Below, in pieces: positions 29,701 to 32,700 of a stretch of 36,212 nucleotides of DNA. Positions within the stretch are counted from its first letter, which is position 1. Each line of letters opens with the position of its first letter. Source of the stretch: a virus (Duplodnaviria; Heunggongvirae; Uroviricota; Caudoviricetes); the IMG/VR virus record IMGVR_UViG_2713896799_000013; one strand, 5' to 3'. Made by a program: the position numbers.

Positions 29701-32700
29701 TGTGCGGAAAGATACGCGCCATTAATGACCTGAAGCAGGCCGCTGACTACAAAGAGCGCCTCTCTAAAGAACTGGTGTCAGCGGAGCAGGATATTACCAC
29801 TCTGGCAAAAAGCGCGGCATTAAACGTTTCGCGAGTGATTGAAAACTACTGACCAATGAGCTCAAGTAGTTCTCCGCAGATGAAGTGCGTGCGCCGGACA
29901 CGGATAAACCTCCGGCATGCTCTTTAACAATCTGGATATTCCTAACCACAAAGAAATCGCATCAATTTGGATTTTGTGGGCAACTTCTCTTGTTGTTCGA
30001 TGGAGACGCCTATTTTGATCTGTGTTTTTAAGATCGCAATATCTTTAAGTGATGACCAAATATGATCATCTGTTTTTTCCAGAGTTTTTAACTGAATTTT
30101 CAATTCCGAATCAGAATATTTTTCTGCATCATCAAAAAGCTGCAAATATTCTGCGGATTTTCTCATGGCATTACCTGACTTTTGTCCGAATCCATAAATC
30201 GTTTGGACGGTTGCGATCACAACAATAAAAACGCCAGAAATTTCCGGAATGAATCCGCCAATGACAGATGAACCGAGGATAATACTCACTACTGAGAGAA
30301 GTTTATCGAGACGACCAGTCGCTACAGAAAACAGTTGCTCAAGAAAATAGCCATATAAAATTCTGTCAAGAATATCATCCCGGTCCATACACCATCACCT
30401 GCTTGTGCTCTTTGCTCTGTCATATGATTTCCTTGGATCGTTGGGGATATCCAGATTATACAGATTTCCTGTCGTTGGGGAATGACGGAAACCACCTCGC
30501 CTGACGTGGTTAAAAGCAGGCACACAACACGAAAGCGCACGGCGAAGTTCGTCTCACTGCACGGTGTCGTTAAATTTAATTCGACCGTGCGCTTCCGGTT
30601 GTGGCGACCCGCGAAATGGCGCGGCGGTAAGTATGGCGGGGGTGGGAGGGACGCCTTTCCCCGTTGAGGACACCGGGTTGTCAGGTTGACCATACGCTTA
30701 AGTGACAACCCCGCTACAACGCCCTCTGTTATCAATATTCTGGTGACATTTGGCGGTATCAGTTTTACTCCGTGACTGCTCTGCCGCCCTTTTTTAAAAG
30801 TGAATTTTGTGATGCGGTGAATGCGGCTCAGCGCACGCGGAACAGTTAAAACCAAAAACAGTGTTATGGGTGGATTCTCTGTATCCGGCGTTAATTGTTA
30901 ACTGGTTAACGTCACCTGGAGGCACCAGGCACCGCATCACAAAATTCATTGTTGAGGACGCGATAATGGAAAAGTTATCATGTAATGCCAGCACGTCTGA
31001 ACTTCGTTTCGAAATTGGCGTTATCACTGGAGACAAAACATTTATTGAAGACGCCATTAAGCAGAGAAAACTCGAGCAGGACCTGTTAAATGAAGTATGC
31101 ATTCCTTCAATGCTGGCTCGTCTGGACCTGCTGCAAAAAGGATATAAACAATGAATACAACATTTGCACTCGTTCTGACAGTTTATCTTGTTTCCGGCGA
31201 ATCTCTTGAGCTGGTGACTGGCTTATACGGTTCAATGAAAGAATGCATGGCTGCAGCAGCAGAACAAAAAATTCCCGGTAACTGTTATCCGGTAGATAAA
31301 ACTACTCACACTAATAATAACGAAATACCGGCAGGACTTTAAAACAGCACCGTAATTAATATCCGGTTTCATTTTTATATGCCAGCAATGGCAGGGATTT
31401 GTTCACCCTTAAATCTATGAGGTTAAAACAAAATGAGTAAAGTCTTTATTTGCGCCGCCATTCCGGACGAACAGGCAATAAAAGAAGAGGGCGCAGTTGC
31501 TGTAGCCACTGCCATTGAAGCCGGTGATGAACGCCGCGCCCGTGCCAAATTTACCTGGCAATTCCTGGAGCAATATCCTGCTGCTCAGGACTGCGCTTAT
31601 AAATTTCTTGTCTGCGAAGATAAACCCGGCATGCCCCGCCCTGCTATCGACTCCTGGGATACCGAATATATGCAGGAAAACCGCTGGGATGAGGAATGCG
31701 CTTCCTTTGTTCCGGTCGAACCAGAATCCGATCCGATGAACGTCAATTTTGACAAGCTGTCCCCTGAAGTACAGAACGCGGTCCTGGTTAAGTTCGGTAC
31801 ATGTGAAAACATCACCGTTGATATGGCGATTGACGCTCAGGAATTACTGCAGGAAGACGTGGCTACCTTTGACGGGCATATCGTTGAAGCACTGATGAAA
31901 ACGCCTGAAATTAACGCTATGTATCCGGAACGCAAACTGTTCGCTATCGGATGGGTTAAACACAAATGTAAGCCGGGTACCAAATGGACCGAAATTCAGG
32001 CTGAATTACGTAACTGGAAAAAACGGCAGGACGCAGAGCGCAAAGAGACTGGAAAATACACGTCTGTTGTTGATCTTGCCCGCGCCAGAGTCAACCGACA
32101 GAGCACTGAAAACTCAGCAGAAAAAATCAATTCTGTCACTGCCGCCATTCGTCGCGAATACAAGCAGACATGGAAAACGCTGGATGAAGAACTGGCCTAC
32201 GCTCTGTGGCCTGGCGATATTAATACCGGAAACATTGACGGCAGCATCCATCGCTGGGCAAAAAATGAAGTTATCGACAAAGATCGCGAAGACTGGAAGC
32301 GCATTTCCGCATCAATGCGCAAACAACCCGATGCCGTTCGCTACGACCGTCAGACTATTTTTGGCCTTGTCCGTGAGCGTCCGATCGACATTCACAAAGA
32401 TCCCGTGGCACTGAATAAATACATCACTGAATACCTTGCGACAAAGGGCGTGTTTGAGGATGAAGAAGCAGATCAGAGCGTTGTTGATGTTCTCCAGTCG
32501 TCAGCATCACAAACTGATGCAGTGGAAACTGAAGTACCTGATACCCAAAAAAATGAAAGCGCGCTGGAAGATGAATCATCTGTAGAGCGTGAAGGGCCGT
32601 TCTACTTCCTCTTCAGCGATAAGGATGGAGAAAAATACGGTCGCGCAAACAAACTTTCAGGTCTGAATAAGGCGCTGGCTACAGGAGCTACTGAAATCAC

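What the first reader, a model, noticed from the sequence alone, without database searches (positions are those of the whole stretch)
29942..30388. AT-rich antisense gene for a 148-aa two-TM protein inserted inside the dicA-ydfABC-dicF-dicB early-left operon
The early-left operon here is syntenic with Qin (ydfA/B/C-like, DicF, dicB, ydfD), except that about 0.9 kb between the ydfC-like gene and the DicF precursor holds a minus-strand ORF in visibly AT-rich DNA. It encodes an N-terminal cytoplasmic helix, two closely spaced TM helices and a charged helical tail. Small membrane effectors encoded antisense in early-left operons are the classic position of superinfection-exclusion genes (lambda/P22 sieB), and the topology also fits 2-TM pore-type abortive-infection effectors. 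I recognise no homolog, so this is a candidate undescribed exclusion or defense effector.
Basis: partly seen in the sequence, partly recalled or inferred. Interest (0 to 1): 0.68.

Follow-up and report, generated by a model that had tools for sequence, protein, structure and literature searches.

The report
Prophage SLATT-like membrane effector cassette
The antisense gene is real and encodes a distant, unannotated relative of the SLATT two-helix membrane "pore effector" proteins; temperate phages carry it with a tiny proline-rich upstream gene, which a 120-bp deletion has removed here, and it is probably an anti-phage or exclusion module but is untested.

Summary
Window 29942-30388 (-) is an intact 148-aa ORF at 37.6% GC against 49% for the window. 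It lies in a ~590-bp insert between the ydfC-like gene and DicF that K-12 Qin lacks. It occurs in only 72-89 of 5426 complete E. coli genomes, and dN/dS against relatives is 0.06-0.09.

It is not an orphan. It matches PHROG 6315 (function unknown) and about 146 clusters of 150-170-aa proteins. The family shows consistent but sub-threshold similarity to SLATT_4 and SLATT_1. An AlphaFold model (pLDDT 87) matches SLATT-annotated viral proteins best. It shows no sequence similarity to SieB.

In E. coli, Salmonella, Citrobacter, Vibrio, Polynucleobacter and two isolated phages, the gene sits in temperate-phage early regions, nearly always antisense to its neighbours.

Two new points:
- Relatives carry a conserved, unannotated 22-52-aa proline-rich micro-ORF that ends 3-23 nt before the start codon, behind a conserved leader hairpin.
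- In this window a 120-bp deletion between 11-bp direct repeats has destroyed that micro-ORF.

Best reading: a lysogen-expressed SLATT-type membrane effector for abortive infection or exclusion. This function is inferred, not shown. I rate it a new variant of a known kind, interest about 0.6.

The parts
29938..30528 (-). Whole inserted cassette (leader, remnant micro-ORF, SLATT-like gene). It is absent from K-12 Qin, where about 25 nt occupy this position.
   Evidence: BLAST and L-INS-i alignment of the window with Qin locus L011; composition dip.
29942..30388 (-). 148-aa SLATT-like two-TM protein gene: N-terminal helix, TM1 about 29-47, 'PE' turn, TM2 about 50-68, four cytoplasmic helices.
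   Evidence: Family evidence. SLATT link. Purifying selection.
30395..30400 (-). Shine-Dalgarno-like AGGTGA, 6 nt upstream of the ATG of the SLATT-like gene.
   Evidence: Sequence read directly; conserved in relatives.
30322..30423 (-). Remnant of the proline-rich micro-ORF. The ancestral SD (AAGGAA, 30434-30429), the ATG and the first 9 codons (MTEQRAQAG) are kept. It then reads out of frame across the SLATT start for 33 codons in all.
   Evidence: Alignment with the intact 48-aa micro-ORF of E. coli GB089 and RM13745 (L024, L025) and the 52-aa one of 2013C-4991 (L010).
30396..30406 (-). Single retained copy of the 11-bp direct repeat ACAAGCAGGTG. This is the junction of the 120-bp deletion that removed codons 10-48 of the micro-ORF.
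   Evidence: The same junction is found in 5 complete E. coli genomes and 8 IMG/VR contigs.
30455..30460 (-). Conserved -10-like hexamer TATAAT, with a poor -35, lying between the two CCCCAAC repeats. Candidate promoter of the cassette.
   Evidence: Equivalent TATAAT, TAAAAT, TACTAT or TAATCT hexamers lie at the same place in ten enterobacterial loci. The consensus scan did not call it because of the weak -35.
30440..30482 (-). Two direct copies of (T)TCCCCAAC..AGGAA about 34 nt apart. The second copy carries the micro-ORF ribosome-binding site.
   Evidence: The same duplicated layout is seen in the Vibrio loci with a different sequence.
30490..30523 (-). Conserved leader element: invariant GCCTG (30521-30517), then a hairpin AACCAC / GTCAGGCGAG / GTGGTT (30511-30490) whose loop CAGGC is complementary to the pentamer.
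   Evidence: At least eight different complementary stem sequences share an invariant TCAGGC loop. One GCCTT/AAGGC double change is seen in L077. No thermodynamic signal and no Rfam family.
30738..30789 (+). DicF sRNA (context: next element of the early-left operon, read antisense to the cassette).
   Evidence: Rfam RF00039, 77 bits, E 1.6e-15.
29637..29852 (+). ydfC-like gene (context: the operon gene just before the cassette).

Best explanation
The ORF is the effector gene of a small mobile cassette that temperate phages of Proteobacteria carry inside their early operons, pointing against early-lytic transcription. It would therefore be made from its own promoter while the prophage is repressed.

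The product is a divergent member of the SLATT superfamily of two-TM effectors. It would sit in the inner membrane as a tight helical hairpin, with both the N-terminal helix and the ~80-residue helical C-terminal part in the cytoplasm.

By analogy with SLATT effectors of CBASS, DRT10 and RADAR, I infer the following. It stays closed in the healthy lysogen. On a cue from an infecting phage it oligomerises and permeabilises or depolarises the membrane, aborting the infection or excluding the superinfecting phage.

In the ancestral cassette its translation is coupled to a 22-52-aa proline-rich micro-ORF that ends 3-23 nt upstream. That micro-ORF is either a peptide partner or gate of the effector, or a slow-to-translate leader that sets and senses its expression.

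In this window a 120-bp slippage deletion has removed that micro-ORF. The remnant now reads out of frame over the effector's start codon. This copy is therefore a natural micro-ORF-less variant, probably with altered and likely lower expression.

Shown: the gene, its family, the remote SLATT similarity, the fold, the context, the micro-ORF and the deletion.
Inferred: expression in the lysogen, pore formation, the trigger and the defence phenotype.
For: - Real, selected gene: dN/dS 0.06-0.09; full-length PHROG 6315 match, E 6e-24; 146 cluster representatives with E<1e-3, all about 150-170 aa.
- SLATT link by sequence:
  - 50 of 113 family members hit NCBIfam SLATT_4 (best 1.2e-5), and 17 hit SLATT_1.
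  - The matches are collinear with the profile.
  - The family consensus hits SLATT_4 at 6.9e-7 and SLATT_1 at 9e-4, and these are its top two hits.
  - Members hit the PADLOC CBASS '2TM effector' and 'RT-associated SLATT' models.
- SLATT link by fold: the AF2 model has pLDDT 87 and pTM 0.77. At least 11 of its top 20 BFVD Foldseek matches are annotated SLATT, with probability about 1.0 for most and TM-score up to 0.69.
- Context: searches show lambdoid, P2/186-like and other temperate-phage early regions. In these the gene lies opposite to the flanking early genes, as lambda sieB does.
- Accessory distribution: 72-89 of 5426 E. coli genomes, with variable left neighbours and IS-truncated copies.
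- Micro-ORF: found in 17 of 19 loci at first pass, and in L024-L027. It is in 53 of 62 IMG/VR loci, and at least 8 of the remaining 9 are the deletion allele. There are 20 distinct peptides with mean Pro content 19% and a core [RK][PT]xP.
- What is known of SLATT: they are predicted pore-forming effectors used by CBASS, RADAR and DRT systems (PMC9226505, PMC7159879, bioRxiv 10.64898/2026.04.29.721553).
Against: - The window protein itself reaches no SLATT model at a significant level. Its best is PADLOC RTasSLATT at E 0.014. No family member reaches a curated cutoff (best 29 bits against 55).
- Pfam's own SLATT models hit only 2 members weakly.
- There is no solved SLATT structure to compare with; PDB searches gave only generic helical matches.
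- No nucleotide cyclase, SLOG, TIR or RT partner is nearby, so the usual SLATT activation logic does not apply.
- No experiment or paper links this family to defence. It is absent as a family from PADLOC 2.0.
- The promoter is only a conserved -10 with a poor -35.
- The window's copy lacks the micro-ORF, so it may be mis-expressed or on its way to decay.
Confidence: 0.5

Rival explanations
1. Toxin-antitoxin-like or addiction module. The 2-TM protein is an intrinsically toxic membrane protein, and the proline-rich micropeptide (or its translation) neutralises it. The cassette would stabilise the prophage or respond to stress rather than sense phages.
For: - Two tightly coupled small genes, the second a membrane protein.
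- A mobile, sporadic distribution.
- A hok/sok module is also present in this prophage.
Against: - The micro-ORF-less deletion allele persists with an intact effector ORF in 5 complete genomes and 8 viral contigs from different sources, and has since acquired SNPs. This is hard to reconcile with an essential antitoxin, unless the deletion also silences the toxin.
- There is no similarity to known TA families.
Confidence: 0.12
2. A phage lytic-cycle membrane function made during phage development, not in the lysogen. Candidates are holin or antiholin-like lysis timing, a kil-like host takeover protein, or an injection or exit aid.
For: - Small 2-TM proteins are typical of class II holins.
- In phage EKP1 the cassette lies next to the holin-lysozyme-Rz genes.
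- DicB and YdfD in the same operon affect division and lysis.
Against: - In nearly all loci it lies in early or immunity regions, opposed to lytic transcription. Even in EKP1 it is antisense to the lysis genes.
- There is no match to holin families.
- An ~80-aa structured cytoplasmic domain and the SLATT similarity are not holin features.
Confidence: 0.1
3. Lysogenic-conversion membrane protein unrelated to phages, such as an ion channel or an envelope-stress or colonisation factor that benefits the host.
For: - Moron-like layout: AT-rich, a candidate own promoter, antisense to the operon.
- Enriched in STEC and bovine E. coli prophages.
Against: - The family spans Vibrio, Polynucleobacter, insect symbionts and enterics, always inside phage early regions. 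This argues for a phage-centred rather than a niche-centred role.
- The SLATT superfamily is known only from conflict systems (PMC7159879, PMC9226505).
Confidence: 0.1
4. In this particular window the gene is a functionally dead or silenced remnant. Loss of the micro-ORF and out-of-frame translation over its start abolish expression, and the ORF is intact only because the deletion is recent.
For: - The 120-bp deletion removes the coupled micro-ORF, and the remnant ORF overlaps the start codon.
- Only 1 synonymous and 1 non-synonymous change are specific to the deleted lineage, too few to show selection.
Against: - The effector's own SD (AGGTGA-N6-ATG), leader and -10 are untouched.
- The allele is found in strains from cattle, pig, sprouts and humans, always with an intact ORF.
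Confidence: 0.25

Closest known systems
SLATT superfamily, nearest SLATT_4 (NCBIfam NF033632 / Pfam PF18186) and SLATT_1 (NF033634 / PF18181)
   Same: - A two-TM helical hairpin flanked by cytoplasmic helices.
- Collinear sub-threshold HMM matches: 50 of 113 members, consensus E 6.9e-7.
- The best structural matches are SLATT-annotated proteins.
- Located in mobile conflict-type loci.
   Different: - No member reaches the curated cutoffs, and the window protein alone is not recognisable.
- There is no SMODS, SLOG, TIR or RT partner.
- Instead there is a proline-rich micro-ORF and a conserved leader.
- The location is fixed, antisense inside temperate-phage early operons.
DRT10 (UG17) RT-ncRNA-SLATT defence system
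   Same: A SLATT-type effector preceded by a conserved structured non-coding element. It is sometimes prophage-borne, and the activation mechanism of its SLATT is unknown (bioRxiv 10.64898/2026.04.29.721553).
   Different: - No reverse transcriptase anywhere near the cassette.
- DRT10 uses SLATT_5.
- The upstream element here is about 35 nt of hairpin plus pentamer and a translated micro-ORF, not an RT template.
CBASS 2TM effectors
   Same: Weak PADLOC hits of 9 members to the CBASS '2TM effector' model, best 2.8e-4. The predicted membrane-disrupting role is shared.
   Different: No CD-NTase or other signal generator, and no recognisable nucleotide-binding domain.
Lambda/P22 SieB (superinfection exclusion B; an abortive-infection type exclusion)
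   Same: The same genomic logic: a small membrane protein gene lying antisense inside the PL / early-left operon of a lambdoid phage, presumably expressed from its own promoter in the lysogen.
   Different: No detectable sequence relationship (hhalign probability 0.2; no Pfam SieB hit). No micro-ORF partner is known for SieB.

Membership tests
SLATT superfamily | Two closely spaced transmembrane helices forming a hairpin, flanked by alpha-helical cytoplasmic segments | tested here: met
   Hydropathy shows helices at about 29-47 and 50-68 with a 2-residue turn. AF2 model: H3-44, H48-65, then four helices, pLDDT 87.
SLATT superfamily | Match to a curated SLATT family HMM (Pfam PF18181-PF18186 etc., NCBIfam NF03363x) at or above its cutoff | tested here: not met
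   The window protein has no Pfam hit and no NCBIfam SLATT hit. The best family member scores 25 bits and the consensus 29 bits against the 55-bit cutoff.
SLATT superfamily | Statistically supported remote homology specific to SLATT models (profile level) | tested here: met
   50 of 113 members hit SLATT_4, 17 hit SLATT_1 and 3 hit SLATT_fungal, and these dominate all hits. For the consensus, SLATT_4 (6.9e-7) and SLATT_1 (9e-4) are the top two hits. PADLOC RTasSLATT and CBASS 2TM models are also hit. A true profile-profile test (HHpred) could not be run because no SLATT alignment was obtainable.
SLATT superfamily | Fold similarity to SLATT proteins | tested here: inconclusive
   Foldseek against BFVD: at least 11 of the top 20 hits are SLATT-annotated giant-virus proteins, with probability about 1.0 for most and TMq up to 0.69, but E-values are only 8e-3 to 0.3. 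There are no solved SLATT structures in the PDB searches. The AFDB library was unavailable.
SLATT superfamily | Operonic or fusion association with a nucleotide-generating or sensing partner (SMODS, SLOG, TIR, RT, etc.) | tested here: not met
   Among the called or annotated genes adjacent to the cassette in the loci examined, no such partner appears. The only conserved neighbour is the micro-ORF.
SLATT superfamily | Pore formation or membrane permeabilisation on activation | not testable with these tools
   Needs expression, depolarisation and plating assays.
SieB (PF14163) superinfection exclusion proteins | Sequence or profile similarity to lambda/P22 SieB | tested here: not met
   hhalign of the family profile against lambda SieB gives probability 0.2. 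There is no Pfam hit.
SieB (PF14163) superinfection exclusion proteins | Antisense position within the PL / early-left operon of a lambdoid phage | tested here: met
   Lambda sieB is at 34482-35036 (+) between N and ral, which are on the - strand. The window gene is on the - strand between + strand operon genes.
CBASS 2TM effector | Adjacent CD-NTase (and usually a signal-binding domain on the effector) | tested here: not met
   No cyclase appears in any locus gene table. There are only weak PADLOC hits.
Class II holins | Small 2-TM protein encoded in the lysis cassette, matching a holin family | tested here: not met
   No holin family hit in Pfam or PHROGs. The gene lies in early regions and is antisense. 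In EKP1 it is adjacent to the lysis genes but opposed to them.

The most novel reading that the evidence does not exclude
The cassette is a previously unrecognised minimal, two-component, phage-borne immune module. Its SLATT-type pore is gated not by a nucleotide second messenger but by the translation, or the product, of a coupled proline-rich micro-ORF behind a pseudoknot-like leader. The module would then read the state of the host translation apparatus, or bind a phage factor through the proline-rich peptide, and fire the pore. The window's 120-bp deletion allele would be a natural 'ungated or silenced' mutant.
Probability: 0.15. Interest if true: 0.8.

Novelty: new variant of a known kind. 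Interest (0 to 1): 0.6.

Why it matters
- SLATT proteins are widespread predicted pore effectors of CBASS, RADAR and DRT systems, but how they are switched on is an open question. The 2026 DRT10 preprint states this explicitly.
- A SLATT-like family that works with only a ~40-aa peptide gene and a short leader would be the simplest available system for studying SLATT gating.
- It would also add a widespread, currently unannotated exclusion or abortive-infection module to lambdoid and P2/186-like prophages. These include prophages of O157, O145 and O103 STEC, where it could shape phage susceptibility and prophage competition.
- The proline-rich micro-ORF is missed by RefSeq annotation in the E. 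coli loci examined. This shows that the functional unit is larger than the annotated gene.
- Natural alleles with and without the micro-ORF exist for direct comparison.

Tried and rejected
- **Direct family searches.** Pfam, NCBIfam and PADLOC scans of the window protein alone gave nothing significant.
- **Solved structures.** PDB sequence searches with 7- and 113-sequence profiles found nothing.
- **First AF2 model.** The model built from 7 sequences had pLDDT 53 and was discarded.
- **SieB homology.** Rejected.
- **Attempts to obtain bona fide SLATT sequences for hhalign.** All failed:
  - The profile search returned only family members without Pfam labels.
  - The search with the most SLATT-like member, P0164, returned two proteins.
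- **The search for related loci with the 113-sequence alignment.** It failed for lack of a conserved stretch. The 14-sequence alignment gave only 6 genome loci but 63 viral contigs.
- **Weak Pfam hits.** HEPN_Cthe2314 was hit by 5 members (best 0.008). LEM was hit only by the consensus sequences (3e-4, over the 'SDEEL..L' helix). I treat both as unproven. The LEM/HeH-like motif is only a lead.
- **Leader RNA.**
  - There is no Rfam match even at E<5.
  - RNAfold z-scores were -0.35 and -0.05, so there is no thermodynamic support.
  - RNAalifold picked the pentamer-loop helix rather than the local hairpin.
  - The predicted long-range pairing of GCCUGCUU with the effector's SD in E. coli is not conserved in other genera, so I rejected it.
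- **Orientation statistics.** My crude ORF-caller run on the IMG/VR loci was unreliable because of spurious long frames. Orientation claims therefore rest only on called or annotated gene tables.
- **Literature.** I found no paper naming these accessions or PHROG 6315. Brenes & Laub 2025 (prophage defence screen) and Burroughs 2015 (the SLATT definition) are not in the library, so prior description there cannot be excluded.
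Full report
**1. The observation**

The minus-strand ORF 29942-30388 exists as described, with an ATG start and 148 codons. PGAP annotates it as a hypothetical protein in a 99.9%-identical E. coli prophage. Its GC content is 37.6% against 49.3% for the window, and the local composition profile dips to 0.36-0.38.

The surrounding genes confirm the Qin-like early-left operon on the + strand:
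- a DicA-like repressor gene, ydfA, ydfB and a ydfC-like gene;
- DicF (Rfam, 77 bits, 30738-30789);
- dicB, a DUF1482/ydfD-like gene and an exonuclease gene.

The ydfC-to-DicF gap is 885 nt here against 340 nt in K-12 Qin. Alignment places the extra DNA at about 29938-30528.

The protein has two hydrophobic helices at about 29-47 and 50-68, joined by a Pro-Glu turn. It has an N-terminal helix continuous with TM1 and a charged helical C-terminal part. Basic residues after TM2 fit an N-in/C-in topology.

**2. A real, selected, accessory gene**

- Against E. coli variants that differ at 10% and 2.5% of nucleotides, dN/dS is 0.09 and 0.06.
- The ORF occurs in 72-89 of 5426 complete E. coli genomes, while its flanks occur in 4572.
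- Its left neighbour varies.
- In O145 strains it is truncated by an IS3 insertion.

So it is not a general feature of Qin-like prophages.

**3. What the protein is**

The window protein alone hits nothing in Pfam. In NCBIfam and PADLOC it has only marginal hits, including PADLOC 'RT-associated SLATT' at E 0.014. It is nevertheless a full-length member of PHROG 6315, whose function is unknown (E 6e-24).

An exhaustive profile search found 146 cluster representatives, all single-domain proteins of about 150-170 aa. I aligned 113 of them (alignment A3) and scanned each member separately:
- 50 hit NCBIfam SLATT_4 (best 1.2e-5), 17 hit SLATT_1, 7 hit the 'mobilome CxxCx11CxxC' family and 3 hit SLATT_fungal.
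- The matches are collinear with the profiles.
- In PADLOC, members hit the CBASS '2TM effector' and 'RT-associated SLATT' models.
- Majority-consensus sequences of the family hit SLATT_4 at 6.9e-7 and SLATT_1 at 9e-4, and these are their top two hits.

All scores stay below the curated cutoffs (29 against 55 bits), which explains the 'hypothetical protein' annotation.

With the deep alignment, AlphaFold gave a confident model (pLDDT 87, pTM 0.77). [quoted passage not shown] Probability is about 1.0 for most and TM-score reaches 0.69, but E-values are modest. PDB searches were uninformative.

I conclude that this is a distinct, unannotated branch of the SLATT superfamily, with confidence about 0.75. 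Formal membership by curated thresholds is not met. There is no detectable sequence relationship to SieB.

**4. Context across relatives**

Gene tables for relatives with 20-63% identity show the gene in temperate-phage early or immunity regions, almost always on the strand opposite to the flanking early genes.
- Lambdoid prophages of Salmonella and Citrobacter carry it, the latter next to cI.
- So do P2/186-like Vibrio prophages, between the CP76 cII-like gene and the early genes, and Polynucleobacter prophages.
- Two isolated phages carry it. In Providencia phage PSTNGR2lys it lies between cI and bet/exo. In phage EKP1 it lies between Q and the holin gene.
- One metagenomic phage has it co-oriented with its neighbours.
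- IMG/VR holds 63 further viral contigs.

Lambda sieB has the same antisense placement in the PL operon.

**5. A conserved micro-ORF partner, lost in this window**

Directly upstream of the gene, on the same strand, relatives carry a short ORF with its own Shine-Dalgarno sequence. It ends 3-23 nt before the effector's ATG and encodes a hydrophilic, proline-rich peptide of 22-52 aa. Examples:
- MTEQRAQAGGGNSTHKTVWDHIPEKNIRPKPSPTPSEERGNSNNQTSR (E. coli GB089)
- MSDSRQTPAWSNIPDVREHIPEKNVRPTPPPPVPTKSDSAEKK (Salmonella)
- MGNPDKFKDHRPPKPTPPKEDRK (Vibrio)
- MKKFCDNEEREQRKDGVPKTHPPRPKVF (Polynucleobacter)

It was found in 17 of 19 loci at first pass; the other two hold a frameshifted copy or one with an unclear start. 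It is also in both isolated phages, and in 53 of 62 evaluable IMG/VR loci.

Across 20 distinct peptides the mean proline content is 19%, with a shared core [RK][PT]xP that is often preceded by DH[ILM]PxK. Between two E. coli alleles the shared part differs by 4 synonymous and 1 non-synonymous change; I read this directly from the alignment. The peptides match no PHROG. RefSeq does not annotate them in the E. coli loci examined.

In the window, and in 5 complete E. coli genomes and 8 viral contigs, a 120-bp deletion between two copies of ACAAGCAGGTG has removed codons 10-48 of this micro-ORF. The remnant starts at the ATG at 30423 and now reads out of frame across the effector's start, to a stop ending at 30322. 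Among E. coli genomes carrying the cassette, 66 of 85 have the 52-aa type, about 14 have the 48-aa type and about 5 have the deletion. Only one synonymous and one non-synonymous change are specific to the deleted lineage. Nothing can therefore be said about relaxed selection.

**6. A conserved leader**

Upstream of the micro-ORF, the enterobacterial cassettes share four features:
- an invariant GCCTG pentamer;
- a hairpin with an invariant TCAGGC loop, whose stem takes at least eight different but complementary sequences (for example CCAC/GTGG, CTAC/GTAG, CCCTC/GAGGG, GGCGCG/CGCGCC, CCTCA/TGAGG, CCGC/GCGG);
- two direct copies of CCCCAAC..AGGAA, the second carrying the micro-ORF ribosome-binding site;
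- a conserved -10-like hexamer between those two copies.

The loop CAGGC is complementary to the upstream pentamer. One locus has the double change GCCTT/AAGGC. The G·U pairs fall on the gene strand. This suggests an RNA hairpin or pseudoknot on the cassette's own strand.

Three points stay unresolved. Thermodynamic z-scores are not significant. No Rfam family matches. And if the -10 hexamer is the only promoter, the hairpin would not be transcribed at all. I leave the role of this element open.

**7. Mechanism**

Shown: a selected 2-TM protein of SLATT type, on a mobile cassette in phage early regions, opposed to lytic transcription, normally translationally juxtaposed to a proline-rich micro-ORF.

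Inferred: expression from its own promoter in the repressed prophage, and insertion as a cytoplasm-facing hairpin. Also inferred is phage-triggered oligomerisation into a pore that depolarises the cell, giving abortive infection or exclusion, as proposed for SLATT effectors in CBASS, RADAR and DRT10 (PMC9226505; PMC7159879; bioRxiv 10.64898/2026.04.29.721553).

I see two roles for the micro-ORF and cannot choose between them:
- (a) The peptide is a partner or gate of the effector.
- (b) The micro-ORF is a slow-to-translate leader that couples effector synthesis to translation state.

The motif is conserved at the amino-acid level, and its distance to the effector start varies from about 15 to 40 nt plus spacer. 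Both facts lean slightly towards (a).

The deletion allele survives with an intact effector ORF. This argues against the peptide being an indispensable antitoxin, unless the deletion also silences the effector.

**8. Comparison, novelty and verdict**

The closest known kinds are SLATT_4 and SLATT_1 effectors, by homology below threshold and by fold. SieB is close by position and probable logic, not by homology.

Nothing in PADLOC 2.0, Pfam or NCBIfam, or in the searchable literature, describes this family or its micro-ORF. Two relevant papers could not be read.

I classify it as a new variant of a known kind: a solo SLATT-type effector with a micropeptide partner. Confidence is about 0.5 for the defence or exclusion function. 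Interest is 0.6.

Noticed in passing
window 30322-30423 (-); intact versions at L024:1437-1583, L025, L010, L002:5830-5982, L003, L004:6894-6992, L006, L007, L026:4875-4991, L027:4847-4993: A conserved 22-52-aa proline-rich micro-ORF (core [RK][PT]xP, often DH[ILM]PxK before it) lies directly upstream of every family member examined. RefSeq does not annotate it in the E. coli loci examined. In the window it is destroyed by a 120-bp deletion between 11-bp direct repeats (ACAAGCAGGTG).
   Followed up: yes
window 30490-30523 (-), and the equivalent position in L002, L003, L004, L012, L013, L016, L017, L026, L074-L090: A leader hairpin with an invariant TCAGGC loop and strongly covarying stems. 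It is preceded by an invariant GCCTG that is complementary to the loop; one locus has GCCTT/AAGGC. This may be a pseudoknot. There is no Rfam family and no thermodynamic signal, and it is unclear whether it is transcribed.
   Followed up: partly
window 30440-30482 (-): Two direct copies of TCCCCAAC..AGGAA about 34 nt apart flank a conserved -10-like hexamer. The second copy carries the micro-ORF ribosome-binding site. Vibrio cassettes have the same duplicated layout with a different sequence (GCGACCCAATAC / GCGACTCAATAA). This may be a regulator binding site or a decoy-SD arrangement.
   Followed up: partly
family consensus residues ~88-114 (window protein ~88-112, EKYSDSELKIQLKTLEK...): The consensus of the family gives a sub-threshold Pfam LEM-domain hit (E 3e-4, 20.6 against 24 bits) over an 'SDEEL..L' helix-loop-helix. 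This is a weak hint of a HeH/LEM-like, possibly nucleic-acid-binding, motif in the cytoplasmic part.
   Followed up: no
window 23277-23448 (-): Rfam sok antitoxin RNA (111 bits). This indicates a hok/sok-type type I toxin-antitoxin locus in the same prophage.
   Followed up: no
window 15711-15886 (-); 17614-17764 (-); 35235-35321 (-): An STnc100 sRNA match (94 bits), two adjacent tRNA genes inside the prophage, and a tRNA next to the integrase end of the window (a likely attachment site).
   Followed up: no
L009 (E. coli O145 strain 95-3192) 1245-2592: In a group of O145:H28 genomes, an IS3-family insertion truncates the SLATT-like gene to its first 92 nt. The leader and micro-ORF remain 100% identical to the intact allele.
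   Followed up: partly
L006 9233-13058; L007 9207-12138; L021 8227-10307; L023 8899-10831: The Vibrio P2/186-like prophages that carry the cassette also hold variable defence-type genes between the CI repressor and integrase genes: SNIPE/T5orf172, GmrSD plus HEPN, and AAA_15/AAA_21 with or without RloB. This is a classic P2-type hotspot, separate from the cassette's position.
   Followed up: no
L002 140-338 and 5044-5232; L003 5008-5095; L006 1091-1314: C4 antisense RNA and isrK RNA matches (P1/P7-type immunity RNAs associated with ant/Rha-like genes) lie close to the cassette in several relatives. DicF is found only in the E. coli loci.
   Followed up: no
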